From an uncultured virus (IMG/VR IMGVR_UViG_3300032242_002374) (taxonomy: Duplodnaviria; Heunggongvirae; Uroviricota; Caudoviricetes): DNA of 64,000 nt. Each line of letters starts with the position of its first letter. Position 1 is the stretch's first letter. The stretch lies in the IMG/VR virus record IMGVR_UViG_3300032242_002374. One strand, 5' to 3'. The position numbers and the translations under genes are program-made. This document shows, piece after piece, positions 6,906 through 62,890 of the stretch. The notes beneath the pieces were generated by a model. It did no database searches. It saw only the letters and a list, made by a program, of their open reading frames with translations, and was not told where the DNA came from.

Positions 6906-6909
6906 TTTT

Positions 6910-8383: not shown

Positions 8384-8384
8384 T

Positions 8385-9275
8385 TTACTTTCTTGATGGT
8401 CTGCCTCTTTTTCTAGTAGGCATTATTATATTATCAGGTTTTATTGATGGAGTTTTAGTATTTACAAAATCCACATCTTCAAAAAGAGTTCCACTTGAAG
8501 GTGGTGGTGGTGGTGGTTCAAAACTTTCTTGTTGTACTATTGGAGGTGCTTCATACTTTTCTTCTTTATGAGGCGGAGATGGTGGTGGCACAACCCTTGC
8601 ACCAGAGCTAACAGTCGCTTCCTTAATACTATTAATCATATCATTAATAGTTCTTTTTTGTTGGAAAAACATAATAGCTTTAGTACCTAAATCTTTTGCA
8701 AAAAGGAATCCTAACTTTTGTTCATCAGTCATTCCAACTCCTCTCTTAGCAAGAACCTTTGTAAGTATTGGTGTAGTTTCTTCTTTAAATTCCTCACTCA
8801 CAACGAACATATTAGAAACTTGACTATTATATTCCTTGAAGAATTGCCCTGCTCTCATCTCTTTGCCATAATCATAACTAATCATAGCATTAAGATTGAT
8901 TTCGCCAGATTCTTGTAGCCTATCCAATTTCTTTTCAGAAACTTGAACATATTTATTAGCAGCACCGTGAATCCATTCATAACCACTCATAATCATTTCA
9001 GCAGCGTGTTGTGCCGACAACTCTGCATCTTTCTTTGAAAGAGTTTCAAATTCTGGATTAATAGGTGCAGCTTTCACCTTTTCTTTAGGAGGCTCTGCCT
9101 TCTTAAATGGTGGTGGTGAAAATCTTGGTTCGCCTATTGGCTTATTAAGGTCTTCGTTTGCTGCTGAAAATCCAGATGCAGAATAAGCCTTCTCATTTAC
9201 TGGCTCATCTAATGGATTCCAACTTATATCCTCAACATTATTTCTTTCTTCTGGCTCTAAAAAATCATTTTCCAT
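8385..9275 (-). CDS. hypothetical protein, Pro-rich, with C-terminal AT-hook
   Basis: C-terminal RKRGRPSRK. Confidence 0.6.
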   Translation of the reverse strand: MENDFLEPEERNNVEDISWNPLDEPVNEKAYSASGFSAANEDLNKPIGEPRFSPPPFKKAEPPKEKVKAAPINPEFETLSKKDAELSAQHAAEMIMSGYEWIHGAANKYVQVSEKKLDRLQESGEINLNAMISYDYGKEMRAGQFFKEYNSQVSNMFVVSEEFKEETTPILTKVLAKRGVGMTDEQKLGFLFAKDLGTKAIMFFQQKRTINDMINSIKEATVSSGARVVPPPSPPHKEEKYEAPPIVQQESFEPPPPPPSSGTLFEDVDFVNTKTPSIKPDNIIMPTRKRGRPSRK

Positions 9276-9714
9276 TTTTTTGCTTTTTCTCTGTTATTAA
9301 AATATTTATTTTCTTAAAATTACTTTCTAAATTCTTTTCAAAATCGCTTTTCGGTTTGACAGCCTTATGCTTAACATAATTGTAGTATCTATGTAAAGCA
9401 GATTCATCTTTGTTAAAAACCATTTTTAATTGCTTATAAGAATATTTAAGCTCTTCTTTGATAAAATATATAGATAACGATAGAGCCATCTTTCTCTCAT
9501 CGTTCCTTTCATTGCCATATAATAGAACATCTTTTGTAATGCCTACTTGATTGCAAGTTATCTCTAAGAAAAAGTCAATAGTATCATCGCTTAACATCAA
9601 TGACTTAGCCTTTGCATCTTGCAATATTTGACAAGTCCTTTCAATACCGATAGATTCAACGGTAGTAAAGACTTCATCCATTATTTTGCCATAAATTGAA
9701 GGCTGTGTATTCAT
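9265..9714 (-). CDS. DnaA domain IV-like helix-turn-helix protein
   Basis: ERKMAL...YFIKEELKYSYKQLKMVFNKDESAL resembles the DnaA C-terminal ARQIAMYL...S...IG..F..DHTTV pattern. Confidence 0.55.
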   Translation of the reverse strand: MNTQPSIYGKIMDEVFTTVESIGIERTCQILQDAKAKSLMLSDDTIDFFLEITCNQVGITKDVLLYGNERNDERKMALSLSIYFIKEELKYSYKQLKMVFNKDESALHRYYNYVKHKAVKPKSDFEKNLESNFKKINILITEKKQKNGK

Positions 9715-9769
9715 ATATTATGTCAATGATATTTTTATTAATGTCAAAGGTAAATAATTTTTTTAATGA

Positions 9770-10222
9770 TTATTTAATTTTTTTTATAAATAGTGGTTCT
9801 AATGCCTTACAAGCCTTAATATTTTGCTTAAACCATAGTTTATCAACAAGCCTTATCTTAACCTCTGGGTAATAAATCCCCATTCGCTTCATCTTCGTTT
9901 GTGACTTAGAATCAAGATAACCCTTAGTTTCAACATACTCTATTGAATTGTTTAGATGTGTTATCCTAAAATCTGGTAAATAAGACCTAACTCCTCTTTT
10001 TATATTATCAAAAAAAAAGCATTGCGGTTCGTGTTCCCACTCTAAAATCTTTCCTTCTTGCTTTAATTTTTGAAGAAATATTGCGTAATAGTATTCCCAA
10101 CTTGAGCGAAAATAAATAGGTTGTTTGTCAGCAATCGTAGCCCAAAATTGCTTATAAGACGTGTCTTTTAACCCCAACTTATCTTTTACCGCTTGTGGCA
10201 GTTGATTGATGTGTAAACCCAT
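9770..10222 (-). CDS. PD-(D/E)XK endonuclease
   Basis: FRSSWE...YLPDF...VETKGY. Confidence 0.8.
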   Translation of the reverse strand: MGLHINQLPQAVKDKLGLKDTSYKQFWATIADKQPIYFRSSWEYYYAIFLQKLKQEGKILEWEHEPQCFFFDNIKRGVRSYLPDFRITHLNNSIEYVETKGYLDSKSQTKMKRMGIYYPEVKIRLVDKLWFKQNIKACKALEPLFIKKIK

Positions 10223-10887
10223 TAATATTTAAAATTGATAAAGTCTTCTTCGTAAACGTATCTTATTATATCATTTGTTTCTTTTGTAAGATAATCGTTA
10301 TACTTAGCATACGAAATAGTGTTTGTATTCTTTTTTTCTAATTCTGGCAAGTAAATGCCTAATTCTTTTGATAGTATAGTAATATCTTTAGATATATCTT
10401 CTAATTTAATATAAGTAATATCTGCACCCAAATCATTCCATTGAGATTGGCTTAAATATGCTCTTGAACCGCCCCAATTTATTCCAGAATTGATGTTACT
10501 ATAAATAAATTTTGGATTACCATAAAAATTATTTAAGAAATTCTTATTAAATAAACAAGCATAAAAATGTTTTGTAAATTCTGGAAATGACATCCCTTTT
10601 ACTTTAACATCATATTTTACGTTCTTAATAATTTTAAGCTGGTGAAAATATGAAGAAACAAATCTACTTATTGGGTCTCTAACAACTTGTATTACCTTAT
10701 AATTATGCAAATCTGTTATTTGAAATAACTCTACTAACTCTGATAAGTACAAGTGTATTTTAGGTTTTTTGTATTCTGCATTAAAATCTAAAAAATCTAT
10801 GCTACTATCTAATAGACATTCTTTTATTGAATTTGAAGCCGTTTTAGGGGGCATCAAAAATATTAATTTCGCTTTTTTGCTTACCAT
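10222..10887 (-). CDS. sulfotransferase family 2 protein
   Basis: PPKTASNSI and VRDPISRFVSSY motifs. Confidence 0.85.
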   Translation of the reverse strand: MVSKKAKLIFLMPPKTASNSIKECLLDSSIDFLDFNAEYKKPKIHLYLSELVELFQITDLHNYKVIQVVRDPISRFVSSYFHQLKIIKNVKYDVKVKGMSFPEFTKHFYACLFNKNFLNNFYGNPKFIYSNINSGINWGGSRAYLSQSQWNDLGADITYIKLEDISKDITILSKELGIYLPELEKKNTNTISYAKYNDYLTKETNDIIRYVYEEDFINFKY

Positions 10888-10890
10888 TAT

Positions 10891-11418
10891 TTATTTATTT
10901 TTCCAATCAATAATAAGGTGTATTCTATCGGCTTCTCCTTCGTTTAATACACTATGTATATTCCCATTGTTATTAACCTCCCAAATTTCGCCTTCTTTTA
11001 AATTCTTTGTAACATCAGCAACGGTAAAATAACAACTTTTATTTGTTTGTATTACTATATGAATCCTTCTTGGCTCAAATATTACGCCTCTATCTAAGTG
11101 TGGCTTAATTGACTTCCCTTTTGGCAACTTAGCCAAAATAGCTCTATAAATGTAACCTTTTGGTTCATCTATTATTTTTCTCAAATGTTCCTGTAAAAAC
11201 AATAATTCTTTTTCAAAAAGTACATAATATTTTGTCTTTTCGGCTTTTTCTACATCTAATTTATCATCAAATATTATTGGGATAGTTTTTGTTTCTTTAT
11301 GAACATCAAACTTTTTTTGTCTAAAATCAAATTCATCCCAATCTAAATTATTTTCTAAAATAATCGTTTTAAAGTTGGTTACATCAATTAAACCATAATT
11401 TCTAAAACTTCGTTTCAT
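10891..11418 (-). CDS. 2OG-Fe(II) Asp/Asn beta-hydroxylase-like protein
   Basis: IKPHLD...RIHIVI...HSVLN...RIHLIID. Confidence 0.85.
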   Translation of the reverse strand: MKRSFRNYGLIDVTNFKTIILENNLDWDEFDFRQKKFDVHKETKTIPIIFDDKLDVEKAEKTKYYVLFEKELLFLQEHLRKIIDEPKGYIYRAILAKLPKGKSIKPHLDRGVIFEPRRIHIVIQTNKSCYFTVADVTKNLKEGEIWEVNNNGNIHSVLNEGEADRIHLIIDWKNK

Positions 11419-12058: not shown

Positions 12059-12071
12059 AATGTACTATTTT

Positions 12072-12200
12072 GGTAATAATATCTTAGTTTACACTAAAAT
12101 ACTTTCCTGCTTCTTTGCTCTGGCTATTGCCAACAACTCCACAGGCTCTTTTCGGCTACCCACCGATGTTTTGTTATTAAATATTGTTATTCCTTTATTT
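12072..12200 (-). ncRNA. putative omegaRNA scaffold of TnpB copy A (5' boundary uncertain)
   Basis: GAGCCTGTGGAG...GAAGCAGGAA blocks and terminal hairpin shared with copy C, overlapping the tnpB 3' end. Confidence 0.55.
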
Positions 12201-13285
12201 TTGATATTGATAGCTGCATTAAAATCTCTATCGTGTGTTGTTCCACAATTATCACAAGTCCATTCACGATGCTGCAACTTCAATTCTTTATTGATTGCCC
12301 CACAAATATTACACTCTTTACTGCTTGGCTCAAACCTCCCTATTTTTATTAAGTTAATTCCCTGCCACTTGCATTTATAACCTAATATCTCATAGAACTT
12401 ACCCAATGAAACATCGCTTATTGATTGTGCTAATTTGTGGTTTTTCAACATCCCAACTACATTCAAATCTTCTATACATATTGAAGAAACAGCTTGGTTA
12501 TCGCTCGTTAAGTTATGTGTAACCTTATGAATGTAATCGAGGCGTTGATTTGTTATTCTTTCGTGTAAACTTGATACACGCTTATTTGCTTTTTTTCTGT
12601 TATTGCTACGTTTTACTTTTCTTGATGCTCTACGCTGCAAACATTTTAATCTTCTTAATCTGCCTTTTAATTTTCTGTTAGCTTCAAATGTTCTGCCATC
12701 ACTGCTAACTACGAATGATTTTATGCCAGTATCTATTCCTATTGTTGTAGCAGAATTTATTTGCTGCAATTGCTTTTCAACATCATTTGTTTCAACTAAA
12801 ATAGATGCAAAATACTTTTTAGTATGAGTTCTGCTAATTGTTACTGTTTTTATTTTACCTTCAAAAGCCCTACTTAATCTTATCGGGATATTAGATATTT
12901 TGGGTATTGATAGTGTTGATGTTTCAAAATCTACTTTTTGATTTGTCCCTATCAAACTACTTCCAAAAGACTGTGTACTATTTTTACTTTTAAACTTTGG
13001 GTAGCCTCTACCATTAAAGAAATTTTTAAACGCAACATCAATCTTTTTTACAGACGCTTGTAATGCTTGACTATCTACACTTTTTATCCAGCCAAAACCT
13101 TTTTTCAAATCTACTAATTGATAACATAAATCAAAAGACGATAAACTCTTCCCTTGCGTTTTATAAGCATACATCTTTATTTCTAATGCCAAATTATACA
13201 CCAACCTGCATACGGATATAGAATGGTCTATTTTAGCCATTTGTTCCTTAGTCGGATATATCCTATATTTGTATGCTTTTATCAA
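12089..13285 (-). CDS. tnpB: RNA-guided endonuclease TnpB
   Basis: KAYKYRIYP N-terminus, RuvC GIDTG / IEDL / DRDFNAA, CxxC...CxxC zinc finger. Confidence 0.95.
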   Translation of the reverse strand: MIKAYKYRIYPTKEQMAKIDHSISVCRLVYNLALEIKMYAYKTQGKSLSSFDLCYQLVDLKKGFGWIKSVDSQALQASVKKIDVAFKNFFNGRGYPKFKSKNSTQSFGSSLIGTNQKVDFETSTLSIPKISNIPIRLSRAFEGKIKTVTISRTHTKKYFASILVETNDVEKQLQQINSATTIGIDTGIKSFVVSSDGRTFEANRKLKGRLRRLKCLQRRASRKVKRSNNRKKANKRVSSLHERITNQRLDYIHKVTHNLTSDNQAVSSICIEDLNVVGMLKNHKLAQSISDVSLGKFYEILGYKCKWQGINLIKIGRFEPSSKECNICGAINKELKLQHREWTCDNCGTTHDRDFNAAINIKNKGITIFNNKTSVGSRKEPVELLAIARAKKQESILV

Positions 13286-13325
13286 AGTGTAAAGTTATAT
13301 ATTATTGCCACTATTTTTATTTTCT

Positions 13326-28772: not shown

Positions 28773-30085
28773 TTTGATAATCTTGAAATTTGACTTATTA
28801 CTGTGTTATAAGCATCTTCGGCTTGTTCTCTTGACAATGCTATTGGGATAACAATTTTAGTATTAGGTCTTGTTGCTGCATCTCTATCAGATTGACTTGT
28901 TTGCTTAGATAAATACTCCATATAAGCATCTTTTACTTGTGATGTATCTGTAATTGGAATTGCAACCCCTTTTTGCATATCAGTTCCCCAAGCACTATCA
29001 TACTGCATAGCTAATTTTAACTTAAAATTTTCAACCCTATAAAACCTTGCATCAGATGAAAGTATTGCAACTTGGTTAATATCTAAATTTTGATTTTCAT
29101 TTTTTATATTTACAAAAGAAAAGTTCTTTTTACCTATACCTTGTAAACGCCCCCTAACACTTTTATACATTTCTCCATCGTAAGAAGCTAATATTCTATA
29201 ATTAACATTTGACTTAGATAATTTTTCACAAATAGAAATTATAGCAATAGAATTGTAAAATATTTCAGATGCAGTTTTTTTAGAAGAAAAAGAAGGTAAT
29301 ACTATCAAATCTATTCTTGGCAAAGGATTTTTAGCCTTTTCTATGTTTATAAAACACTTTTTGAATGTCGTTGTAAACATAGGTTTTCCATTAGAACCTA
29401 TCTTTTGCCTTTGCTCTACTTGGTGTCTTGGTATTTCTTCTTGCTTTGGATAAAAATACAAATAAGCATTAGCACTACCTAAAGGCTGTTCCACTATTTC
29501 TAAGTCTTTCTTATCAACCAATCTCCCCAAAATATTACTATAAAATCCACCTTTACTTTCGTTGTATTTTACTTCGTGTCTTGGAATGTATTTTTGCCCT
29601 ATAAAATAAAAATTCTTGTTTTCGCTTACAACAAAATTACCATCTATTGTTGTTTTGAATAGTGGAGAATAATACTCATACACTTTTATCAAACCTAAAG
29701 ATGCTAAGTCATACGAAAATATACCAACTTCTTTTTCGGTAAAATGAATACGTTTTACTTGGTCTATATCAATTACATCAGCTTTAGCAATTTTACTTCT
29801 TAAAATCTCAACTTCTTGCTCTAATTCTTGTATTTTAATGTAGTTATTAATTGGATTTAAAACCCAACTTGTATCAATAGTTCCATACCAATTAATACCT
29901 TGATTTCTTACTAAATTGTCAGCACTATTTTTGGCATTTTGTGCATTTATATAATCTTCAGTAGCATTATAAGCAGTACCCCTCAAAGGTATTTTTGAAA
30001 TTACCTCTTCTGAAAATTTCTGCATATCTGTAATACTATCAAAGTAATAGACTACTTTATTGTTATTTATAATTTCTTTACGCAT
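28769..30085 (-). CDS. vWA-like partner of MoxR ATPase (degenerate MIDAS)
   Basis: Directly downstream of AAA+ gene; beta-alpha pattern IDLIVLPSFSS...AIISICEKL. Confidence 0.5.
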   Translation of the reverse strand: MRKEIINNNKVVYYFDSITDMQKFSEEVISKIPLRGTAYNATEDYINAQNAKNSADNLVRNQGINWYGTIDTSWVLNPINNYIKIQELEQEVEILRSKIAKADVIDIDQVKRIHFTEKEVGIFSYDLASLGLIKVYEYYSPLFKTTIDGNFVVSENKNFYFIGQKYIPRHEVKYNESKGGFYSNILGRLVDKKDLEIVEQPLGSANAYLYFYPKQEEIPRHQVEQRQKIGSNGKPMFTTTFKKCFINIEKAKNPLPRIDLIVLPSFSSKKTASEIFYNSIAIISICEKLSKSNVNYRILASYDGEMYKSVRGRLQGIGKKNFSFVNIKNENQNLDINQVAILSSDARFYRVENFKLKLAMQYDSAWGTDMQKGVAIPITDTSQVKDAYMEYLSKQTSQSDRDAATRPNTKIVIPIALSREQAEDAYNTVISQISRLSK

Positions 30086-32540
30086 TTACTTTAAAATAGT
30101 CTGCTACAAAAAGTTGTTTGTATTTTTCTAATTGTGTACTTGCATTTTCAGAAACTACACTTGTTAGTGTTTGCACAATTTTACCATCAATAACTTTTTT
30201 AATGCAGCCAGATACTTCTTTTTGTATGAAAGCAGTAGTTAAGCCTGTATTTTTTATAATATTAGCTTGTGTAGCATCATTGTTAAAAGCAATCATAAAA
30301 CTATCAAATGCTTTGTCTAATGTTTTGCCCTCATTTAATATTTTAGCACCTTCACTTTCTGCAATCTTACGAACTAACTGAAACTCGAATGCTACTCTAA
30401 ATGCAGTTAATGTACGATAACTAACAACAGCCAACTCATCAAGTCCTAAATCTTTTAAAACAGTTCTTAACCCTTTTGCTTGTGGCTTAGTGGTTTTGTT
30501 TTTGATAGCATCCATATACTCATAGTAGTTACCTACAAGCATATCGTATAAGAATTGGAAACGGCAAAATTGCTCGTCTAATGCTTTTGACGGCATTACT
30601 TTATACACACTACCACTAAATCTATCTAGCAATGATAAATCTTGTTGATTGTTTGCACGATACTCTGGTGGCGGGGCTTCATTTGGATAAATGTTACCAG
30701 TAGCAATAACAGCAAAGTCGTTGCTTCTTGGTATTGGTGGCATATCTGGGTTTGCCGAATTTATTGATGGGTTTTGATTAGTTTTAGAAGACTTTGCCAA
30801 AGCATCATTAAACAAACCTGCTGTGTTAGGGTCTAAACGAGGCATTTCATCTAAAATCAATATTTTACCATCTCTCCACGCTTGTATTAACTTGCCATCT
30901 TTGTAGCCTTCAATACTTTGCCCACCAATTACTTCAATTGGCGAAGTGTATTGAGAACAATTTATTACAGTATATTCTCTTTTTAGCTTTTTTGTAACTA
31001 ATTCAGCAAGGTAAGTATTGTGCGTTACAATGTAATTATCTGTAATATACAAATGTGATGGATTTGTTACAGAAATACATCTAACAGGCATTTCGCCTAT
31101 ATAATAAACTTCATCAATAAATCTTTTTACCTTATACTTTGTAGGCTTTTTATATTTCTCTAATTTAGAGCCTAAGCTAAATGGAATAATTTCGTCAGGG
31201 AAAACACAAGTTATTCTATAATTTAAAGCACCCTCTCTTTTTTCGCCATTGTGAGTATAAACAGGGACTCTACTTTTTATTTTAGCTGTTCCTCCTAGAC
31301 TTCTTACTAATTCGCAATAATCTTCTGATAGTTGATAGCTTGATGTAGAAAACTCAAAATTAAAGTCGCCATAATAAGCATCGGTATCATTTAATCCTTG
31401 TAAAAGTAATGTTCTATTTTCTATGCTATCATATAAATAATCTTTTGGTATAAATTTATTAATTGATTTATGACCTGCCAATCCTAATGTATGAATCTCT
31501 TCACCAAAAATGTTAGCTGTTTTTGCACTTTTTCTTGCAATTGAATAAGTCAAACATCTATCATCACAATTTACTTTGTTTAATTGCAGGTCTTCGTGTA
31601 TTTCAAGACTATCAAAAAGTTCTTGAGATGGATTGGTTATTGATATTGTTTCTGTTGTAACACAGCCATCCCCTAAAATAACACCCATCAAGTATGGACT
31701 AATTATGTGTTTTTTAGCTTCAAATTGTATTGGCTTATTGACATCTATAAAAGCATTTGCTAAACCTGTTTTAGTTTTTATATTAGCCATAAATTCTTTC
31801 AAAGGAAGAACTTTACCTTTTCTTTTTTTACCCCTATCATTTCTTGTGTATATTTTCCACAAATGTTCATCACAAGTCTCTGCAAACGAGCCATCATTCA
31901 TAAAAACTCTATAAGTAGGCTTTACGCCTCTATCATAAACTCCATTTATTTCATAAAGTTTACCATCTTCGCCAAATACTTTATCGCCAACTTTTACATC
32001 TGCAAAAGTTATCCATCCATTATTTGAAAGTATTTTAGATGTTAATGGTTGAGCTTTACCCAGTCCAGCACCACCAATTAAATACACGTTATTCCCTGCT
32101 AAAACATCATCTAAAATGTCATAGAAAAAAGGTATTTGCTCTTCTTGCTTAGTTACTTCAACCTTTACTCCACCAAAATTGGGGAACTCTAAAATTATCG
32201 TTTGGTTTTTCTTAATTTCATCAATCACATCTTTACTTAAATCGTCAAGATTGATTTTTTTATTTTGGAAATACTCATTGATTAATTTATTTACTTGGTC
32301 GCTGTCAACACCACTATTAGGTGTTTCTTTCATAAATGCCGAAAGCATAGCTAATGTTTCGTCAGCATTAAATGATGCTTCTTCATCAACTGTTGCTACT
32401 TCATTACTTTCAATGGTTTGTAACTCGGTTTCAAGGCTTTGTATTCTTTCAAAAACAGATTCTTTAAATTCAGGGTCTATAATATCAATAGATTCTCTCA
32501 AATCTTTTAAGTCTGAAATGATTTCTTCTTTTCTTGTCAT
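30078..32540 (-). CDS. MoxR/CobS-like AAA+ ATPase, intein-containing
   Basis: Walker A GGAGLGK[intein]T, Walker B LILDEM, IATGN, DLSLLDRF. Confidence 0.85.
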   Translation of the reverse strand: MTRKEEIISDLKDLRESIDIIDPEFKESVFERIQSLETELQTIESNEVATVDEEASFNADETLAMLSAFMKETPNSGVDSDQVNKLINEYFQNKKINLDDLSKDVIDEIKKNQTIILEFPNFGGVKVEVTKQEEQIPFFYDILDDVLAGNNVYLIGGAGLGKAQPLTSKILSNNGWITFADVKVGDKVFGEDGKLYEINGVYDRGVKPTYRVFMNDGSFAETCDEHLWKIYTRNDRGKKRKGKVLPLKEFMANIKTKTGLANAFIDVNKPIQFEAKKHIISPYLMGVILGDGCVTTETISITNPSQELFDSLEIHEDLQLNKVNCDDRCLTYSIARKSAKTANIFGEEIHTLGLAGHKSINKFIPKDYLYDSIENRTLLLQGLNDTDAYYGDFNFEFSTSSYQLSEDYCELVRSLGGTAKIKSRVPVYTHNGEKREGALNYRITCVFPDEIIPFSLGSKLEKYKKPTKYKVKRFIDEVYYIGEMPVRCISVTNPSHLYITDNYIVTHNTYLAELVTKKLKREYTVINCSQYTSPIEVIGGQSIEGYKDGKLIQAWRDGKILILDEMPRLDPNTAGLFNDALAKSSKTNQNPSINSANPDMPPIPRSNDFAVIATGNIYPNEAPPPEYRANNQQDLSLLDRFSGSVYKVMPSKALDEQFCRFQFLYDMLVGNYYEYMDAIKNKTTKPQAKGLRTVLKDLGLDELAVVSYRTLTAFRVAFEFQLVRKIAESEGAKILNEGKTLDKAFDSFMIAFNNDATQANIIKNTGLTTAFIQKEVSGCIKKVIDGKIVQTLTSVVSENASTQLEKYKQLFVADYFKVNA
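31017..32054 (-). mobile_element. class 3 intein (346 aa) with LAGLIDADG homing endonuclease, inserted in the P-loop
   Basis: Starts AQPL, block B CDEHLW, block F VRCISV, ends VTHN before T; MGVILGDG and LLQGLNDTD motifs. Confidence 0.9.
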
Positions 32541-40425: not shown

Positions 40426-41658
40426 TTACGCAACAAATGATGTTAAAATATATTTATTTACTAAACTATTTCTTGTTGAAACGTTTATTTTCTTTGGGGC
40501 TAACGCAGCCCTCATTACTGAATTAGAAATTTGCATTTCGTTTCCAGATACACTTAAACCCAATCTCGCTATGTTCAAACTACCATTGCAGTCTGCATTA
40601 ATTAGTTTACCTTCTGCTGTTACAAACAACCCACGTTTTTTACGTTTACCAACGTATTTATCGTGCTTTTGTATAGGCTCTAAATCTAATGCTGAACACT
40701 TGCTTGTATAGGCTTCTTGCGTTACTAAAACTTCTATTCCTACCAACAAGCCTTTGTACTGTATTTTTTCTATTAAAGAACTATGTGGTATGCTTACGAA
40801 GTTTCTATTTGTTTTTTTACCCAAGTTTACATCTTGCTTCCAATTTTTATTGTTGCCAATAATTACTTTTGTTACGTTTTCATTTTCTGCTTGTTTTATT
40901 ATTTTGTTTGAAATTTGATGAATATAGTTTTCAACCTTATTGTTTCTGCTACTGGTTAGTCTATTTATTCTTTTACTTAAATAACTGCCTTGTGGTAACA
41001 ATGATTGTAATTGTGATTTACGCTTATTATAAAAATGGTTGATTGATTTTAATGGTTTACCATTATAAATTGTACCAGTTTCTTTTGTTGTGCAAGTAGC
41101 TAAATTATTTAATCCTAAATCAATTCCCATCCAATTGCCGTTATACGCTTGTAATTGCTTTTCTTGCTTTTCATAAACAACTTCTACTGTAAAGTGGTTG
41201 CTGTTAGGAATAATCCTTACTTGACATACATTATCAACCTTAGTTTTTAATGGCTCTAAATTAGTCATCTTTGGAAAATAAACAAAGCCATCTTTTAACT
41301 TAATTTGTTGATTAGTAAAACTAACTATTGATGTTTCTTTTTTGTACTTTGGTAATTTAGGACGACCCAAAAACTTGCTTGGGTTCTTAGCATACTCTTT
41401 TCTTGCTTTCTGCCAACTTTTAATGTTTTTAAAAAGAAGTTTTATAACTTGTTGCGATGTTTGTGCTGGTAATGATTTATAATTTTCTTCGTTATATTCA
41501 GCAAATAATCCTGTTAATTCAAACTCTGTAAAATACTTAATATTCCCAAAAATAGATTGCCTCCAATAGTACAAACTTTGATTGTAAAGATTTTTAGCCT
41601 TTACGCAAAGTTCGTGATATTGCTCACCTTTTAAAATATGTCGTTCTACTAATTGCAT
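40426..41658 (-). CDS. tnpB: TnpB of a distinct clade (copy B), no adjacent transposase
   Basis: MQLVERHI N-terminus, GIDLGLNN, displaced RuvC-II Glu (QEAYTSK), INADCNG; degenerate zinc finger. Confidence 0.9.
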   Translation of the reverse strand: MQLVERHILKGEQYHELCVKAKNLYNQSLYYWRQSIFGNIKYFTEFELTGLFAEYNEENYKSLPAQTSQQVIKLLFKNIKSWQKARKEYAKNPSKFLGRPKLPKYKKETSIVSFTNQQIKLKDGFVYFPKMTNLEPLKTKVDNVCQVRIIPNSNHFTVEVVYEKQEKQLQAYNGNWMGIDLGLNNLATCTTKETGTIYNGKPLKSINHFYNKRKSQLQSLLPQGSYLSKRINRLTSSRNNKVENYIHQISNKIIKQAENENVTKVIIGNNKNWKQDVNLGKKTNRNFVSIPHSSLIEKIQYKGLLVGIEVLVTQEAYTSKCSALDLEPIQKHDKYVGKRKKRGLFVTAEGKLINADCNGSLNIARLGLSVSGNEMQISNSVMRAALAPKKINVSTRNSLVNKYILTSFVA

Positions 41659-43778: not shown

Positions 43779-44192
43779 TTAGAGAACTATTTTTACGAGT
43801 AAAGCAATAAAAGCTATTTGAGATATTGTTGTTTTGGTTTTACTCCATTTAAGGCTTTTCCTTGTATCATTTAATTGCCTATTTACAATATCATATTTTA
43901 TTGAATCGTTAAATATTTGTTCAAAAGATAGTTTTAGCTGCTTATCTTTCAACAAAATAACGCTATCCCTATTTTTTACTATATTACCAGATATTTCAAG
44001 ACTTTTAACCAAAACTTTATTGGTAGTATCACATTCATCGAGCTTGTTTAAATCAATGGCAATCTTCTTAGCTACTGATTTTGGAATACATACCAAACTA
44101 TCATTTACCTTTGTTGTATCTTTCTGTGAGAATACTTTCAAGTTGATGAACAGAAGAACTGTTAATAATGCTATCTTTTTTATGCTTCTCAT
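43779..44192 (-). CDS. secreted/membrane coiled-coil protein, possible spanin-like subunit
   Basis: Signal peptide, coiled coil, overlaps upstream TM coiled-coil gene. Confidence 0.45.
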   Translation of the reverse strand: MRSIKKIALLTVLLFINLKVFSQKDTTKVNDSLVCIPKSVAKKIAIDLNKLDECDTTNKVLVKSLEISGNIVKNRDSVILLKDKQLKLSFEQIFNDSIKYDIVNRQLNDTRKSLKWSKTKTTISQIAFIALLVKIVL

Positions 44193-44442
44193 TTTTAATT
44201 CTTTTTAATTCAGCTATATTGTTGTTTAAATCTTGCTTTAATAAATCATTGTACCCATTTAAGTCTTCAATGTCTTTATAAAACATATTAATGCTATCTT
44301 GCTTTATTTTGTTAAGATGAGTAAGAGAATCTATTTTATGCGTGTCTTCTATTGTTTTTATAACTTCTTTAACTCCTTTTTTCTGTAATACAAGTAATAA
44401 AACAAGAATAGCTATTATTAATATTAAAATTGTGTTTTTCAT
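44101..44442 (-). CDS. N-terminal TM coiled-coil protein, possible i-spanin-like
   Basis: TM followed by a long coiled coil. Confidence 0.45.
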   Translation of the reverse strand: MKNTILILIIAILVLLLVLQKKGVKEVIKTIEDTHKIDSLTHLNKIKQDSINMFYKDIEDLNGYNDLLKQDLNNNIAELKRIKNEKHKKDSIINSSSVHQLESILTERYNKGK

Positions 44443-44462
44443 TGCACAAATGTAATTATTTT

Positions 44463-44600
44463 GGCAATAATATATTAGTTTACACTAAAATATTTTTCCT
44501 GCTTCATAGTCCCAACTAACGTCAGCAACTCCACAGGCTCAACTCGGATGCCCTCCGATGTTTTTGTTATTAAATTTTGTTTGTCTAACCCAAAACGTTT
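44463..44600 (-). ncRNA. putative omegaRNA scaffold of TnpB copy C (5' boundary uncertain)
   Basis: GAGCCTGTGGAG...GAAGCAGGAA...TATTTTAGTGTAAACTAA conserved with copy A. Confidence 0.55.
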
Positions 44601-45668
44601 TATGTTTTGTGCTGCCAAAATATCCCTATTGTGAGTAACACCACAAGACTTGCAAGTCCATTCTCTATCAGATAGTTTTAATTCAGCATTTTTAAAACCA
44701 CAAGTACAAAGTTTACTACTTGGCTCAAAACGACCTATTTCTACATAATTACAACCATTCCATTCACTTTTGTACTTTAAATAATTAAAAAATGTAGCCC
44801 AGCTTACAGAACTTATGCTTTTTGCTAAATTGTGGTTTTTAAGCATACCTTCTACATTCAAATTCTCAACAATAATCGTTTGGTTTTCACGGACTATTTT
44901 TGTAGAAAGTTTATGTAAAAAATCATTCCTTAAATTTGATATTCTGTAATGAAGTTTTGCTACTTTTTTATTTGATTTTTTTCTGTTTGCAGAACCTTTT
45001 TGTTTTCTTGATGAACGCCTTTGCATTACAGAAAGTCTTTTTTGTAAACCTTCGTAATACTTAGGGTTTTGTATTTTATCCCCAGTAGATAAAGTTGCAA
45101 AATCTTTTATGCCAACATCTATACCTATTGCGGTGCTTTCGTTAATACTTTTTTTAATAGGGATTAAATCAGCCGTTTCAACTAAAATAGATGCAAAATG
45201 GTAACCAACTGCATTTCTACTTACGGTTACAGTTTTTATTTTACCTTCAAAAATCCTGCTTAAAAATAAATTACAATATCCAATTTTAGGAAATCTAATT
45301 TTACTATTTTCAAAATCTATTTTAACCCCTTGCGTAAATTGACAAGACTGCTTACTATTATGTTTTGATTTAAACTTTGGGAATCCCTTTTTGTCTCTAA
45401 AAAACTTCGTGTATGCTTTATCTAAATTTTGAACCGAACAACAAAGGGTTTGGTGGTCAACTTCTGATAGCCATTCTTTTTCTTTTTTATGAATAACTAC
45501 CAATTTACACAAATCAAATTGAGATAATGATTTCTTTTCTGTTTGATACGATTTTGTTTTCAAATCTAAGCAATAATTATAAATATACCTTGAACAACCA
45601 AAAGACTTATTCATAAAGTCTTTTTGCTTATTATTCAAATTTAATTTATACTTATATGCTTTTAACAT
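44475..45668 (-). CDS. tnpB: RNA-guided endonuclease TnpB
   Basis: Start at ATG 45668 (MLKAYKY); GIDVG / VENL / NRDILAA RuvC motifs; zinc finger. Confidence 0.95.
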   Translation of the reverse strand: MLKAYKYKLNLNNKQKDFMNKSFGCSRYIYNYCLDLKTKSYQTEKKSLSQFDLCKLVVIHKKEKEWLSEVDHQTLCCSVQNLDKAYTKFFRDKKGFPKFKSKHNSKQSCQFTQGVKIDFENSKIRFPKIGYCNLFLSRIFEGKIKTVTVSRNAVGYHFASILVETADLIPIKKSINESTAIGIDVGIKDFATLSTGDKIQNPKYYEGLQKRLSVMQRRSSRKQKGSANRKKSNKKVAKLHYRISNLRNDFLHKLSTKIVRENQTIIVENLNVEGMLKNHNLAKSISSVSWATFFNYLKYKSEWNGCNYVEIGRFEPSSKLCTCGFKNAELKLSDREWTCKSCGVTHNRDILAAQNIKRFGLDKQNLITKTSEGIRVEPVELLTLVGTMKQEKYFSVN

Positions 45669-45738
45669 TATGCGAATATATACAATAAAACAAATTAATG
45701 GCAAAATCCTTTAAGTGTAAAATTATATATTATTGCCA

Positions 45739-45900
45739 TTATTTTTTGATTAAATGGTTGCATACACTTTTTCTTACTATACTATACTTGCCACAATGAG
45801 TGCATTTAATCTGCTTTTCTAATTCTTTATCAGAAAAGTTAATTGTTATCTTTATTCCGCAGCCACTACAAAGAAACCATTTAGATATAACTTCTTTCAT
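45739..45900 (-). CDS. 53-aa zinc-ribbon protein (not in ORF track)
   Basis: MKEVISKWFLCSGCG...KCTHCGK; stop codon lies inside the 8-bp TSD. Confidence 0.65.
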   Translation of the reverse strand: MKEVISKWFLCSGCGIKITINFSDKELEKQIKCTHCGKYSIVRKSVCNHLIKK

Positions 45901-46529
45901 TAATCTATATTTAATTCTTGCTTAGGAGGAACACTTTTAACAATATACGTTATTTCGTTATAACCTGCATAATGATATTTGGCATTTGATTTTAACATAT
46001 TATCTATCAATTCCCAATCGTGACCATAATTAGCACTATGAGGTGGCATCATTTTTAAAAAATCTGTTTTAACAATGATTTCGCTGTGACCTATATGACC
46101 ATTTTGTAAATTGGAAATTCTTGGTGCGTTATAAGGCTCTACATAACTATTGTAATAAACAAAATCATATTCGGTATTTTCTATACCAGATAAGTAATTT
46201 TCAAAGTGATTATTTTTTATAACATCGTCATTAGATAGAAATATAAAATATTTCCCATTTGCACGTTGAATGTTTTGATTTATTATAGCATATCCACAAC
46301 CACCTTTATTTTCAAAGTTGTTTGATATTTTTAGATTGTTCCCTTTAGCATTTGCATCTTTAACGTAATCACTAAAAGTATTGCTAAAAATAAAATCTTT
46401 CATTACAGAACAGCCATCTCCAACAACCAATGCTTCCCAGCCATTTATGTTTTGATTGCAAATACATTCGATAGCTCTTATAGTTCTTTGTGGTCTGCCA
46501 TAACAAGGCATTGATACAGTTAGTCTCAT
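45900..46529 (-). CDS. glycosyltransferase family 2
   Basis: TVSMPCYGR, VVGDG, FLSNDD, GHDW. Confidence 0.85.
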   Translation of the reverse strand: MRLTVSMPCYGRPQRTIRAIECICNQNINGWEALVVGDGCSVMKDFIFSNTFSDYVKDANAKGNNLKISNNFENKGGCGYAIINQNIQRANGKYFIFLSNDDVIKNNHFENYLSGIENTEYDFVYYNSYVEPYNAPRISNLQNGHIGHSEIIVKTDFLKMMPPHSANYGHDWELIDNMLKSNAKYHYAGYNEITYIVKSVPPKQELNID

Positions 46530-47855: not shown

Positions 47856-48452
47856 TTAATCAATTTTTGTTGCAAATTTAAAGATAAAACCACCGTGAGT
47901 ATTTCTCTTACCATAGCAAACACTAGATATTTTACTAGAAGATAATTTTAAATAATCTGCTGCAATTGATATTGCTGCGAATCTGTTTTTTATTTCACCA
48001 CTTTTACTGATTTGCACAACTGGCTTCCATAAAGATGGTACAATATAACCTTTTCTTACTTTGCGTACATCAATAAACCTATTTTTTAATAAACCAATCT
48101 TTTTAGCGTGTGCCATATTTTCTTTTGGAGAAGCCCATTCTAAATTTTCTACCCTATTATCGTCTTTTATTCCATTGATGTGATTAACTTCTTTTTTATT
48201 AAACTCATTTAGTATGAAAGTTATAGCAACTAATCTATGAACAAATATGTGTTTATATTTTTTATTTACTTGTAATTTTACCCTAAGATAACCTTGTTTA
48301 TTTTTTATAAGTGATAAATTTTTAGCAACCCCTACGGCTCTGTAATTTAATCCTTTAACATTACCAAGATTAGAAACTAAATAATAATCTCGATAGCCAT
48401 CAAAAGCAATAGGCTGCCAATATTCTACATCATTATCGTAAATATTCGCCAT
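47856..48452 (-). CDS. NUMOD4-HNH-NUMOD1 homing endonuclease
   Basis: YLVSNLGNVK, VHRLVA, VNHINGIKDDNRVENLEW, C-terminal NUMOD1. Confidence 0.9.
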   Translation of the reverse strand: MANIYDNDVEYWQPIAFDGYRDYYLVSNLGNVKGLNYRAVGVAKNLSLIKNKQGYLRVKLQVNKKYKHIFVHRLVAITFILNEFNKKEVNHINGIKDDNRVENLEWASPKENMAHAKKIGLLKNRFIDVRKVRKGYIVPSLWKPVVQISKSGEIKNRFAAISIAADYLKLSSSKISSVCYGKRNTHGGFIFKFATKID

Positions 48453-50785: not shown

Positions 50786-51568
50786 TTATCTTGGATGAAT
50801 TATTTCTTTTGTTTCTATTTGTTTTTTAAATATTGATTTTAAAAATACTTGTATGTATTTTAAGTTTGTTTTACCAAATCCTTGTTTCTTAAATCTTCTA
50901 GCGGAGGTTTTAATTGTTAAATTAGTATCAAAGTATATTTTACCATATTTAATTAAATTGAGAGCCATATCGGTATCATCTCCATAAAATGTTAAGTCTT
51001 CATTCAAAGGGAATAGATATTCCTTTAAAACAAATACATTCCCCCCTAATATAATACCCCCTATTTTAAAAAATTGCAAAGTGTATGAAATATACTTATA
51101 TAAGAATTGCTGTATAAATAAGGAAACATTTCTTCTAATAAAATTAGTATCATCATAAAAATTCATAGCTCCAGTAACAGCAACAGCATTTTCTTTTTTT
51201 AAAGAACTGAATCCATTTCTTATCCAATTATAATTTACTATACAATCTGCATCTAAAAAAGCTATTATATCCCCAGAAGATATTTTCCTTCCACATTCTC
51301 TCGCAGCAGATGTACCTTGTTTTTTTTCAGTTACTAATTTAAAGTCTATATTTCTTACTTTGCAATAGTAAATATCTGATAGTGGATTATAATAGAATTT
51401 TGATTGATTTGTAAAAAAAGAAATTAATCTTAATTTAGTATTATCTGTTGAATAGTTATCTACTATAATAACTTCATAGTTATCGTAGCTTTGGCAAGAA
51501 AGAGAAGAAATTGCTTTAAAAATATACTTCTGTTCGTTATACGCTGGTATTATTACTGATACTTTCAT
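50786..51568 (-). CDS. glycosyltransferase family 2
   Basis: VSVIIPAYNE, IVDN.STD, FLDAD, GDDTD, TSARR. Confidence 0.9.
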   Translation of the reverse strand: MKVSVIIPAYNEQKYIFKAISSLSCQSYDNYEVIIVDNYSTDNTKLRLISFFTNQSKFYYNPLSDIYYCKVRNIDFKLVTEKKQGTSAARECGRKISSGDIIAFLDADCIVNYNWIRNGFSSLKKENAVAVTGAMNFYDDTNFIRRNVSLFIQQFLYKYISYTLQFFKIGGIILGGNVFVLKEYLFPLNEDLTFYGDDTDMALNLIKYGKIYFDTNLTIKTSARRFKKQGFGKTNLKYIQVFLKSIFKKQIETKEIIHPR

Positions 51569-51899
51569 TATTAAGTCTAGTTTTGCCAGAAGGTAATACC
51601 ATTATAATATTATCTTCTTTGTTATTTAATGTGTTATTGTCTCTGTGATTAACAACTAAGCTACTATTTAAAAAATCATCCCCATATTTTTGATATGCAG
51701 CTAATTGGTGTACATATATTTCCACCCTTTTGCTTTCGTATCTGATGCCAAAAGAATAGTAAGCTAATTTGTCGGTTTTTTTCTTATAGTGCAAAAATAG
51801 TTTTCTAGGAGTATTTTTTTCTCTATAATAGACATTGCCATCTTTTACCCTATACCCATTTTCATAAGCAAATATAATCGCCTTTTTCTTCTCTGTCAT
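51537..51899 (-). CDS. HNH endonuclease-like protein
   Basis: YVHQLAAY...VNHRDNNTLNN..DNI. Confidence 0.7.
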   Translation of the reverse strand: MTEKKKAIIFAYENGYRVKDGNVYYREKNTPRKLFLHYKKKTDKLAYYSFGIRYESKRVEIYVHQLAAYQKYGDDFLNSSLVVNHRDNNTLNNKEDNIIMVLPSGKTRLNNESISNNTSV

Positions 51900-61806: not shown

Positions 61807-62501
61807 TTTTTAGTTCTTCATTCATTCTAAAATAAAATATGTTTTGTAGATGATGCAAACCAGTAACTTCAATTTGACTTACATACTCTATCCAAATATC
61901 ATTGATGTAATTTACTTGCAACCCTCTTAAATTAAAACTTGGAAAACATTTGAAATTTAGTTTTTGTAAGCCACCAAACTTCAATAGCAATTCTTCTGAT
62001 AGTGGTATATAATTATAAATACCCCTATGATGATAAATAGCTTCTAACACTTGAAATGTTACTTCTACCATTCTATTATGTTCGTTATAAACATAATTAC
62101 CAATCCTTAAATCTTTATAATTTACCATATTTCTCATTGTAGTATTTTTCTGCTGCGATAGTTGCATCTTCAATAGTGATATAATTTTCGCCAATTAGAT
62201 AGGCAAATACAAAAGCATCAATTATATTTTTCTTTTGAAGAGCCATAGGCTCACCTTTACTATCAAAAGTTTCTTCAAACCATTCGTCAACATCACATAA
62301 GGCTATAATTTCTACACCTCTTTTATCCATAGCCTCTACTCCAGCATCGTATGATTTATAGATACATTGTTTTTCGTATGGCAATAATGATTCAGCATCT
62401 TTTATAATTTCGCTTATTACGTTTCTTACAGTATCATCTTCATTATTTGCATAATTACTATACTGTGAAATTAATTTTTGTATTTGTAAAGGTGTTTGCA
62501 T
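61796..62501 (-). other. two hypothetical phage genes (61796..62194, 62115..62501)
   Basis: DLRIGNYV...IPLSEELLLKFG...LHHLQN and EK.CI..SY..G...AEKYYNE.Y patterns common in Bacteroidota phage small proteins. Confidence 0.6.
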
Positions 62502-62890
62502 TAGTTTAAATATTTAAAAGTAAAGTCTTTGTGTTTTCTATTACCATTTGCACAATGGCAAATATGAGAACGACTTATTTGTAAATAGATTGATGCTTCT
62601 CCCAAAGAATCGTATATTTCGGTATTGCCATAAGTATCAGTAACTAGAACTTTTTTTTCAAGCCCCCTTTTAGCAATAGGCTTCGCAATTTTTTGCAATA
62701 TTTCATTAGCATAGTCTGTATCTTCATAAGCAAATGAAACGCCTTTAACTTGTCTATAAGTACCTTTCAAAACTTTGAATATGCTTGTGACATCTTTTAT
62801 ATTCAAATGAATAGAAGCATCTGTTAGGCTTTCATAAGAAAACCATTTTTTAGTCTTAATTACATAAGCTACAATAGGTCTCTTAGTCAT
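62501..62890 (-). CDS. tandem NUMOD1 DNA-binding domain protein
   Basis: Two Y.SL..AS..L.I repeats. Confidence 0.7.
   Translation of the reverse strand: MTKRPIVAYVIKTKKWFSYESLTDASIHLNIKDVTSIFKVLKGTYRQVKGVSFAYEDTDYANEILQKIAKPIAKRGLEKKVLVTDTYGNTEIYDSLGEASIYLQISRSHICHCANGNRKHKDFTFKYLN

What the first reader, a model, noticed from the sequence alone, without database searches (positions are those of the whole stretch)
44455..45745. Second independent TIR/TSD TnpB element with the same ends (copy C)
Seen: a 1275-bp unit with 22/24 TIRs nearly identical to copy A and a different 8-bp duplication (ATTATTTT), while its TnpB is clearly diverged from copy A. Two divergent TnpBs sharing ends, each with its own TSD, make coincidence unlikely and indicate an element family. 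Both targets fit AyTATTTT and are intergenic: this one overlaps the stop codon of a zinc-ribbon gene and abuts a TACATTTG promoter box.
Basis: seen in the sequence. Interest (0 to 1): 0.85.

Follow-up and report, generated by a model that had tools for sequence, protein, structure and literature searches.

The report
TnpB cassette with IS1595-type ends
A 1.3-kb jumping element in a phage genome carries only an RNA-guided nuclease gene (tnpB) and its guide-RNA fold, but has the inverted ends and 8-base target duplication of an unrelated cut-and-paste transposon family (IS1595), so it most likely borrows that family's enzyme to move; arrangements of this kind are already in print.

Summary
Copy C spans 44463-45737 (1275 bp). 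It has 22/24 terminal inverted repeats (TIRs) and a perfect 8-bp duplication, ATTATTTT. Its only gene is a tnpB that looks intact. Copy A (12072-13309, duplication ACTATTTT) has nearly the same ends (23/24 and 22/24), but only 49% protein identity and 56% interior DNA identity.

The ends are IS1595-family ends. In metagenome contigs the same 24-bp TIR flanks DDE_Tnp_IS1595 transposase genes; one is 24/24 identical to copy C's left end. Bacteroidota IS1595 elements have GGYRATTATATAC-type TIRs with 8-bp duplications. Neither the window nor five related phage contigs encode such a transposase. I therefore read copy C as a non-autonomous cassette moved in trans.

A relative gives direct proof of insertion: 86 of 88 contigs carry the empty site with one copy of the 8-mer, and 2 carry the element with two.

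The tnpB 3' end holds a covarying guide-RNA scaffold. One of its hairpin loops pairs with the last 4-6 bases of the right TIR, so the guide would start at or just after the duplication.

TnpBs in DDE-type elements, including solo ones, are in print (Altae-Tran 2023). This scan has noted IS1595-type cassettes before on other DNA. I rate it a new member of a known kind.

The parts
44455..44462 (.). 8-bp target-site duplication, copy next to the right end (ATTATTTT on +; AAAATAAT on the tnpB strand). It would be the first 8 nt of the guide, or the tail of the scaffold.
   Evidence: identical 8-mer at 45738-45745
44463..44486 (-). Right-end TIR (RE). It overlaps the last tnpB codons and the 3' end of the predicted omegaRNA scaffold. 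Its outermost bases (RNA ...UGCC) pair with a scaffold hairpin loop.
44475..45668 (-). tnpB, 397 aa from the ATG. HTH, RuvC D-E-D and TNB/zinc-finger regions are present; the first zinc knuckle reads CxC instead of CxxC.
   Evidence: ISDra2 TnpB 8bf8, E 3e-73
44498..44558 (-). Covarying omegaRNA-like helices: hairpin 44544-44558 with loop GGGCA, and a nested stem 44498-44537.
   Evidence: 18 pairs, 14 with compensatory changes in 17 sequences; coordinates
45714..45737 (-). Left-end TIR (LE), GGCAATAATATATAATTTTACACT on the tnpB strand. It is 24/24 identical to the TIR next to an IS1595 transposase gene in metagenome locus L123.
45738..45745 (.). 8-bp target-site duplication, copy next to the left end. 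It contains the stop codon (45739-45741) of the upstream 53-aa zinc-ribbon-like ORF.
12064..13317 (-). Copy A, the comparator: duplication ACTATTTT (12064-12071 and 13310-13317), TIRs 12072-12095 and 13286-13309, tnpB 12089-13285.

Best explanation
Copy C is a non-autonomous member of the IS1595 family of DDE transposons. The transposase gene is replaced by a TnpB-omegaRNA module.

Insertion (inferred from anatomy and relatives). An IS1595-family transposase encoded elsewhere, most likely in the host cell, bound the two 24-bp GG-type TIRs. It inserted the cassette into an AT-rich 8-mer in the roughly 16-nt spacer between two phage genes, and the staggered cut was filled in to give the ATTATTTT duplication.

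The cargo (shown in silico only). tnpB looks catalytically intact. Its 3' end encodes a conserved, covarying RNA scaffold that runs to the very tip of the right TIR, and the last 4-6 bases pair with a hairpin loop as a pseudoknot. The guide is therefore read from the flanking phage DNA, starting at or just after the duplicated 8-mer.

Function (inferred by analogy with IS200/IS605 TnpB and Fanzor). The TnpB-omegaRNA complex cuts phage genomes that still carry the empty site. Recombination with an occupied genome then copies the cassette in. This would keep and spread it among co-infecting phages that have no transposase of their own.

The confidence given is for the identity of the element (IS1595-type cassette with TnpB cargo, moved in trans). 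The homing step alone I put at about 0.3-0.4.
For: - Anatomy: TIRs 22/24 and a perfect 8-bp duplication. Copy A has near-identical ends (23/24, 22/24) but 56% interior identity and a different 8-mer.
- The same TIR marks IS1595 elements. Of 57 metagenome loci found with the TIR pattern, 16 loci (13 contigs) encode an IS1595-type transposase and 0 encode TnpB.
- L144 is a complete 1324-bp IS with the TIR at both ends and a 305-aa ORF (read with TGA=W) matching DDE_Tnp_IS1595 at 2.7e-39.
- L123's TIR equals copy C's LE 24/24. L129 and L152 equal copy A's LE 24/24. Similarity stops after about 24-27 bp.
- In a sample of 301 Bacteroidota genomes, 54 hold PF12762. Their elements have GGTGATTATATAC-, GGCGATTATATAC- and GGTAACGATATACGAATTTACACC-type TIRs with 8/8 duplications: L157, L179, and L168, L173, L175 after a one-base shift.
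- Literature: IS1595 members are usually flanked by 8-bp TSDs (PMC8101967, passages). ISEc69 makes 8-bp AT-rich duplications experimentally (PMC7835479, passages).
- No PF12762 hit in the window or in 5 related phage contigs.
- Insertion shown in a relative. For L034, 86 of 88 contigs with its left flank continue straight into its right flank with one TTACAATA. Two carry the element with TTACAATA on both sides.
- omegaRNA: 14 of 18 consensus pairs have compensatory changes. In 16 of 17 sequences a hairpin loop has 4 or more nt complementary to the element's last bases. Three variants covary: GGCA/UGCC, GGUA/UACC and GGUG/CACC. The loop follows the RE even where LE and RE differ. Control windows reach this in 388 of 2720 cases.
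- TnpB: Pfam domains, D-E-D columns invariant, ISDra2 TnpB E 3e-73.
- Print precedent: DDE-associated TnpBs all have inverted terminal repeats, and solo TnpBs have matching ends (PMC10691335, section 9 read).
Against: - No empty site, polymorphism or donor transposase was found for copy C itself. The phage has no close relative in the collections. Reads gave only the occupied form.
- Only 3 of 20 viral loci with both ends have a perfect duplication. L027, L029 and L061 reach 7/8 only in a register shifted by one base, read by eye. The others have unrelated flanks. At the L035/L036 site the right flank is not contiguous with the 12 element-free alleles.
- The IS1595 copies with the identical TIR come from organisms reading TGA as W, which this phage's host is not. 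A scan of one genome per species with the TIR pattern gave 14 hits that all look like chance. A compatible transposase in the real host is therefore assumed.
- In the TnpB tree, TIR-bearing rows are not one clean clade: L001 and L072 sit apart and the backbone is weak.
- Copy C's first zinc knuckle is CxC, not CxxC.
- The occupied allele of L034 is rare (2 of 88), so efficient homing is not evident.
- No conserved TAM could be read from the left flanks.
- Expression, cleavage and transposition are all untested.
Confidence: 0.78

Rival explanations
1. Relic or domesticated cassette. The element arrived once by IS1595-type transposition but is now immobile in this phage. TnpB serves the phage, for example by cutting competing phages or host DNA or by acting as an RNA-guided regulator, rather than serving the element.
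For: No transposase in the window or in 5 related phage contigs. tnpB is co-oriented with all phage genes and sits in a tiny intergenic gap. Copy C's zinc knuckle is CxC. Many relatives lack duplications.
Against: Both TIRs and both duplication copies are intact in A and in C. The ends are far better conserved than the interior, 94% against 56%, which points to continuing selection by a transposase. The D-E-D triad is intact. The scaffold-to-terminus pairing is kept.
Confidence: 0.12
2. Ordinary IS200/IS605 (IS1341-type) TnpB element moved by a Y1 TnpA as single-stranded DNA. The inverted ends and the repeated 8-mers are incidental.
For: The protein is a close relative of IS200/IS605 TnpBs (ISDra2, E 3e-73). 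Many relatives at 30-54% identity have palindromic hairpin-like ends rather than TIRs.
Against: IS200/IS605 elements have neither TIRs nor TSDs (PMC13565253, passage). Here the TIRs are 22/24, and they are identical to the TIRs of IS1595 transposase-bearing elements. Two copies have perfect 8-mers. A relative's empty site shows a true 8-bp duplication. No Y1 transposase family was hit in the window.
Confidence: 0.04
3. TnpB itself, an RNase H-fold/RuvC protein, acts as the transposase on the TIRs.
For: No other transposase is present in the element or the window.
Against: The same TIRs flank a dedicated DDE_Tnp_IS1595 gene, with no TnpB, in 13 contigs. MITE-sized pairs exist with no gene at all: L126, L145, L113, L150. 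[quoted passage not shown]
Confidence: 0.02
4. Assembly artefact: the duplications or junctions were created by mis-assembly of repeated ends.
For: Two copies with near-identical 24-bp ends lie in one contig. Metagenome assemblies can mis-join repeats.
Against: A second assembly (Logan contig, 59.6 kb, depth 57) covers 43900-46300 with 0 differences, though possibly from the same reads. The interiors of A and C are only 56% alike, so there is little to mis-join. The same architecture recurs in unrelated contigs.
Confidence: 0.01

Closest known systems
DDE-transposase-associated TnpB branches (DDE-1 to DDE-6) and solo TnpBs with matching ends, Altae-Tran et al. 2023 PNAS (PMC10691335; section 9 and passages read, SI not seen)
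   Same: TnpB sits inside a transposon with inverted terminal repeats. The tnpB 3' end lies close to the transposon end (here 12 nt). A solo TnpB has ends near-identical to those of transposase-bearing elements, which implies mobilisation in trans.
   Different: The DDE families named are IS630 in the paper's main text, and ISL2, IS630 and IS1031 in the 2026 review (PMC13565253, passage). 'IS1595' has 0 occurrences in the paper's main text. Whether one of the six branches is this one may be in the SI, which I could not see. Here the carriers are phage genomes and no copy with both genes was found.
IS1595 family insertion sequences (ISEc69; ISNwi1-like group, the group name being recalled from ISfinder)
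   Same: TIRs of about 24 bp with terminal GG, and 8-bp AT-rich target duplications. Identical TIRs flank DDE_Tnp_IS1595 genes. Passenger genes occur in family members: KilA-N in L177 and P63C in L132 and L151.
   Different: Copy C has no transposase gene, so it is not autonomous. Its passenger is an RNA-guided nuclease whose RNA overlaps the right TIR.
ISDra2 TnpB-omegaRNA (IS200/IS605 family; PDB 8bf8, 8exa, 8h1j)
   Same: Full-length homology (E 3e-73). The RuvC triad is present. The omegaRNA is encoded in and after the tnpB 3' end, with a structured scaffold that ends at the element's right boundary.
   Different: ISDra2 has subterminal hairpins, no TIRs and no TSD, inserts next to TTGAT, and is moved by a Y1 TnpA (review passage). 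Copy C has TIRs and an 8-bp duplication, and no conserved left-flank motif could be read.
Fanzor and Fanzor2* in eukaryotic TIR transposons (Yoon et al. 2023 NAR, PMC10711439; figure legends and passages read)
   Same: A TnpB-type nuclease was captured by cut-and-paste transposons with TIRs and TSDs. The guide-RNA scaffold is adapted to the bases that the transposase recognises, and the TSD lies at the scaffold/guide junction.
   Different: Those are eukaryotic or giant-virus elements of other superfamilies. Here a prokaryotic TnpB close to ISDra2 sits in a phage. Whether the TSD belongs to the scaffold or to the guide is not known.

Membership tests
TnpB (RNA-guided nuclease of IS200/IS605-type elements) | Domain architecture: HTH, OrfB_IS605 (RuvC) and TNB/zinc ribbon | tested here: met
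   PF12323 1.3e-14, PF01385 5.2e-31, PF07282 4.9e-19. ISDra2 TnpB E 3e-73 over residues 3-363.
TnpB (RNA-guided nuclease of IS200/IS605-type elements) | RuvC catalytic D-E-D triad | tested here: met
   D in IGIDVG and D in NRD are invariant columns, and E in VENLN/IEDLN aligns. The alignment shows the same three positions.
TnpB (RNA-guided nuclease of IS200/IS605-type elements) | C4 zinc finger between RuvC-II and RuvC-III | tested here: inconclusive
   copy C reads LCTCG ... CKSCG (CxC + CxxC), whereas copy A reads CNICG ... CDNCG. The effect is unknown.
TnpB (RNA-guided nuclease of IS200/IS605-type elements) | omegaRNA scaffold at the 3' end reaching the element boundary | tested here: met
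   14 of 18 pairs have compensatory changes; loop-to-terminus pairing in 16 of 17 sequences. In silico only; no Rfam family matched.
TnpB (RNA-guided nuclease of IS200/IS605-type elements) | TAM-dependent RNA-guided DNA cleavage | not testable with these tools
   No assay was possible, and no RNA run is listed as holding the stretch.
IS200/IS605 family element (IS1341 type) | No TIRs and no TSD; subterminal hairpins; specific 4-5 nt target at the left end | tested here: not met
   TIRs 22/24 and an 8-bp duplication. Definition from the PMC13565253 passage.
IS1595 family (as a non-autonomous derivative) | TIRs with terminal GG, shared with elements that encode DDE_Tnp_IS1595 | tested here: met
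   (24/24 identity with L123). for Bacteroidota IS1595 TIRs.
IS1595 family (as a non-autonomous derivative) | 8-bp, AT-rich target-site duplication | tested here: met
   Empty versus occupied site in relative L034. Literature.
IS1595 family (as a non-autonomous derivative) | Encodes a DDE_Tnp_IS1595 transposase with an N-terminal zinc ribbon | tested here: not met
   None in the element or the window. Hence 'non-autonomous derivative', not a full member.
IS1595 family (as a non-autonomous derivative) | Mobilisation by an IS1595 transposase | not testable with these tools
   Needs a transposition assay. No transposase from the phage's host is known.
DDE-associated TnpB branches (Altae-Tran 2023) | Inverted terminal repeats; tnpB 3' end within 250 bp of the end; solo copies with ends matching transposase-bearing elements | tested here: met
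   (section 9 of the paper).
DDE-associated TnpB branches (Altae-Tran 2023) | Placement in one of the named branches DDE-1 to DDE-6 | not tested
   The branch sequences are in the SI, which I did not see.

The most novel reading that the evidence does not exclude
The cassette is a two-engine selfish element. A borrowed host IS1595 transposase seeds it into AT-rich gene spacers of phages. Thereafter the TnpB-omegaRNA acts as an RNA-guided homing endonuclease against the empty phage allele. Its scaffold is locked by a pseudoknot to the very bases the transposase recognises, and its guide begins with the duplicated 8-mer. The element therefore spreads through phage populations with no transposase of its own. 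The near-identical ends on two TnpBs only 49% alike show that the transposase, not descent, fixes the ends.
Probability: 0.3. Interest if true: 0.6.

Novelty: new member of a known kind. Interest (0 to 1): 0.4.

Why it matters
TnpB is usually described as a partner of the scarless Y1 and serine transposases. TnpBs in DDE-type elements are reported as rare. This family shows, with an empty-site proof and RNA covariation, how a TnpB guide RNA can be fitted onto the terminal repeat of a cut-and-paste transposon that makes target duplications. That is a prokaryotic parallel to Fanzor elements. It also shows that such cassettes are common cargo in phage genomes. It raises one testable question: does the guide start in the duplicated 8-mer, or after it?

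Tried and rejected
- Whole genome: none is held for the window.
- Close relatives of the phage, to find an empty site for copy C: none by megablast in 'phages'; none with the flanking GT2 protein in viral contigs.
- Sequencing runs: no RNA holder is listed. Only one full DNA holder exists and it may be the source. X2 to X4 gave short unrelated pieces. No contig joins across the element.
- Rfam: no omegaRNA family matched. Three weak hits below the gathering score look like chance.
- TIR pattern in viral contigs: 4 stretches. Only L001 lies next to a tnpB; the other three lie in or between unrelated ORFs.
- TIR pattern in one genome per species: 14 hits, with no TnpB by tblastn and no transposase among the 21 ORFs scanned out of 56 listed. 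I treat these as chance.
- PF12762 in four bacterial genomes reached through those hits: 0 of 4.
- Empty sites for L020 and L023: only their own contigs matched.
- L034 against GenBank phages: one hit, phage csAssE-Sib, where the region holds tRNAs and a Ro60-like gene instead. This is a variable spot, not a clean empty site. L020 had no match.
- An element with both an IS1595 transposase and TnpB: none in 80 viral, 57 metagenome or 30+29 Bacteroidota loci.
- Promoter claim: TANNTTTG is not clearly enriched upstream of genes. It occurs before 10 of 69 starts; the spaced pattern gives 4 matches against 2.2 expected.
- Single clade of TIR-bearing TnpBs: not resolved. My regex labels missed some TIR-bearing rows (L015, L016, L042, L043 by eye), and I did not run an AU test.
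Full report
**1. What is there**

Between 44455 and 45745 the sequence reads ATTATTTT, then GGCAATAATATATTAGTTTACACT, then the element interior, then AGTGTAAAATTATATATTATTGCC, then ATTATTTT. The two 24-mers are inverted repeats that agree at 22 of 24 positions. The unit between the duplications is 1275 bp (44463-45737).

Its only long ORF runs on the minus strand, like every other gene of the window. It spans 44475-45668 counted from the ATG. It matches HTH_OrfB_IS605, OrfB_IS605 and Cas12f1-like_TNB, and ISDra2 TnpB over its full length (E 3e-73). The RuvC D, E and D positions are conserved. The first zinc knuckle is CxC instead of CxxC.

The TIR pattern occurs only four times in the window: this pair and copy A's pair at 12072-12095 and 13286-13309. 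Shuffles give 0.22 on average, and none of 100 reaches four. Copy A is flanked by ACTATTTT on both sides.

A and C are 49% identical as proteins and 56% as interior DNA (703/1247). Their ends agree at 23/24 and 22/24.

The right duplication copy contains the stop codon of the upstream 53-aa zinc-ribbon-like ORF. The left copy lies 12 nt before the ATG of the next gene. Copy A likewise sits in a gap of about 21 nt between two genes.

The window looks like a large phage. It has a polyvalent protein, SNF2 helicase, glycosyl- and sulfotransferases, and several HNH/LAGLIDADG endonucleases. It has no transposase of any family.

**2. The ends are IS1595-family ends**

I recalled that ISfinder lists 8-bp repeats and 'ggnnatTAT'-type ends for one IS1595 group, and I tested that lead.

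A scan of metagenome contigs with the TIR pattern gave 57 loci.
- None encodes a TnpB relative.
- 16 loci from 13 contigs encode an IS1595-type transposase.
- L144 is a complete 1324-bp element with the TIR at both ends. Read with TGA=W, it has a 305-aa ORF that matches DDE_Tnp_IS1595 at 2.7e-39.
- The TIR beside L123's transposase gene is identical, 24 of 24, to copy C's left TIR.
- L129 and L152 carry copy A's left TIR, 24 of 24.
- Beyond about 24-27 bp the sequences are unrelated.
- MITE-sized pairs with no gene also exist. One of them, L126, has the perfect duplication CTCAAGAG.

In a sample of 301 Bacteroidota genomes, 54 hold the transposase family. Their elements have GGTGATTATATAC-, GGCGATTATATAC-, GGTAATTATACGC- and GGTAACGATATACGAATTTACACC-type TIRs with 8-bp duplications. 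Some carry passenger genes such as KilA-N. None carries tnpB.

Papers agree on the family's properties. IS1595 members are usually flanked by 8-bp TSDs and have a zinc-finger plus DDE_Tnp_IS1595 transposase (PMC8101967, passages). ISEc69 makes 8-bp AT-rich duplications in an assay (PMC7835479, passages).

**3. The TnpB family with such ends**

Viral contigs hold many relatives at 40-55% identity: 452 confirmed, of which the best 80 were kept.
- A strict motif finds a GG-type end in 29 of the 80 loci, and both ends in 15. By eye a few more have diverged versions.
- Of 20 loci for which I set both ends, 3 have a perfect 8-bp duplication: L020 TGACTAAT, L023 TAACTTAA and L034 TTACAATA. The null frequency is 0.0001.
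- L027, L029 and L061 scored 0-1 of 8 in the register I gave the script. They are 7/8 when the left end is set one base inward, which I read by eye.
- The remaining loci have unrelated flanks.

L034 gives a direct test.
- Its left flank plus TTACAATA occurs in 88 viral contigs.
- 86 continue straight into L034's right flank, so they carry a single TTACAATA.
- 2 hold the element with TTACAATA on both sides.
- This is a true 8-bp target-site duplication in this family.

At a site without a duplication (L035/L036), 12 of 18 contigs lack the element. Their sequence after the left flank differs from the right flank of the occupied form, so a rearrangement accompanies that copy.

In a quick tree of 78 TnpBs, 29 of 31 motif-labelled rows, together with copies A and C, fall in one group of 38 (SH-aLRT 83). 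L001 and L072 sit apart and the backbone is weak. A single capture is therefore neither shown nor excluded.

A and C are not sisters in that tree, yet they have the most similar ends. This fits ends held constant by one transposase.

Bacteroidota chromosomes in the sample mostly hold hairpin-ended relatives. One genome is an exception: it has a distant TnpB lineage (25% identity) with GGGAATTATATAC TIRs and the duplication AAATTATA.

**4. The guide RNA**

An alignment of the last 200 nt of 17 elements gives two conserved structures with 18 pairs. Fourteen of the pairs have compensatory changes. In copy C they lie at 44498-44558.

The loop of the first hairpin is complementary to the last 4-6 bases of the element in 16 of 17 sequences.
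- Three variants covary: GGCA with UGCC (copy C), GGUA with UACC (copy A and six others: L001, L025, L031, L009 and L006 at 4 nt or more, L072 at 3 nt only) and GGUG with CACC (the gut-phage group).
- The loop follows the right end even where the left and right ends differ.
- Control 8-mers elsewhere in the same sequences reach 4 nt of complementarity in 14% of windows.

This resembles the scaffold pseudoknot described for TnpB and Fanzor guide RNAs, and their adaptation to transposase-recognised bases (PMC10711439, figure legends). It places the end of the scaffold at the tip of the right TIR.

The guide would then begin with the 8-mer: AAAATAAT followed by TACATTTGTGCAATG for copy C. Alternatively, as reported for eukaryotic TIR transposons, the 8-mer is part of the scaffold and its left copy serves as the TAM (PMC10711439 legend; PMC13565253 passage). 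I cannot tell which. The left flanks show no conserved motif beyond A-richness.

**5. Mechanism**

- Shown: the anatomy; identity of the ends with IS1595 elements; a true duplication on insertion in a relative; RNA covariation.
- Inferred: mobilisation in trans by a host IS1595 transposase; an active TnpB-omegaRNA; homing against the empty phage allele.
- Against strong homing: the L034 insertion is rare (2 of 88).
- Against a known donor: the IS1595 copies with the identical TIR read TGA as W, unlike this phage, and no bacterial genome with this exact TIR was found.

**6. Comparison and novelty**

TnpBs inside DDE-type elements with inverted terminal repeats are in print, as are solo TnpBs with ends matching transposase-bearing elements (PMC10691335, section 9 read).

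The families named there and in a 2026 review are IS630, ISL2 and IS1031 (PMC13565253, passage). IS1595 is not in the paper's main text, and I could not see its supplements.

Earlier notes of this scan describe IS1595-type TnpB cassettes, and a scaffold ending at the TIR tip, in other genomes. I reached the same reading from my own calls before I looked at them.

I file copy C as a new member of a known kind. It is a clear and well-supported example, of moderate interest.

Noticed in passing
window 40426-41658 (-): A third TnpB gene (410 aa; OrfB_IS605 7e-23), only 21% identical to copy C. It has none of the GG-type TIRs and no obvious duplication, so it belongs to a different element type.
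   Followed up: partly
window 30078-32540, 47856-48452, 51537-51899, 62501-62890 (all -): Other selfish-endonuclease signatures: a LAGLIDADG_3 stretch inside an AAA_5 protein (a possible intein) and three HNH/NUMOD homing-endonuclease-like ORFs.
   Followed up: no
L144 (299-1622), L115, L123 and others: The IS1595 copies that share the window's TIR need TGA=W to give an open transposase frame. There are 6 TGA codons in L144, and one falls at a W conserved in L115. The same IS lineage therefore lives in organisms with another genetic code.
   Followed up: partly
L001 492-1732: A tnpB with the right TIR and ATAGATAA on both sides of the element, but no recognisable left TIR. Chance repeat or a remodelled left end; unexplained.
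   Followed up: no
L011 about 2380-2402: The right end of another copy (...TATATAATCACC) lies 8 bp before this element's left TIR. This points to tandem or nested insertions. The tnpB here has a stop at codon 80.
   Followed up: no
L035 / L036 left junction; L277-L294: The same insertion exists with and without 4 extra bases (AAGT) between flank and left TIR: 5 contigs with, 1 without. Element-free alleles also read AAGT there.
   Followed up: partly
L014, L017, L028, L030 right flanks: In gut-phage relatives an ATG lies within 1-5 nt of the right TIR, and may be the next gene's start codon. In the window, copies A and C also lie 5 and 12 nt before a start codon.
   Followed up: no
L304, L311, L326 (genome G309): A Bacteroidota genome holds at least four or five cassettes of a distant TnpB lineage (25% identity) with GGGAATTATATAC TIRs and the duplication AAATTATA. 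It also holds IS1595 transposase genes with GGGAACTATATAC- and GGCAGTTATATAC-like motifs beside them.
   Followed up: partly
L177 470-1399; L132, L151; L128: Other passengers next to the same kind of TIR: a KilA-N protein together with the transposase (L177), P63C-domain proteins, and an Abi_2 protein. For the last two only one end was seen.
   Followed up: partly
L008, L012, L013, L014, L018, L038, L045: These tnpB genes stop at codon 372, but the downstream RNA region stays similar enough that tblastn reads through the stop. The C-terminal roughly 20 aa of the window copies overlie the guide-RNA scaffold.
   Followed up: partly
window 6498-11418 (-): A cluster of sulfotransferases, an APS-kinase-like and a cytidylyltransferase-like gene, and an Asp/Asn hydroxylase-like gene. 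Several glycosyltransferases flank copy C.
   Followed up: no
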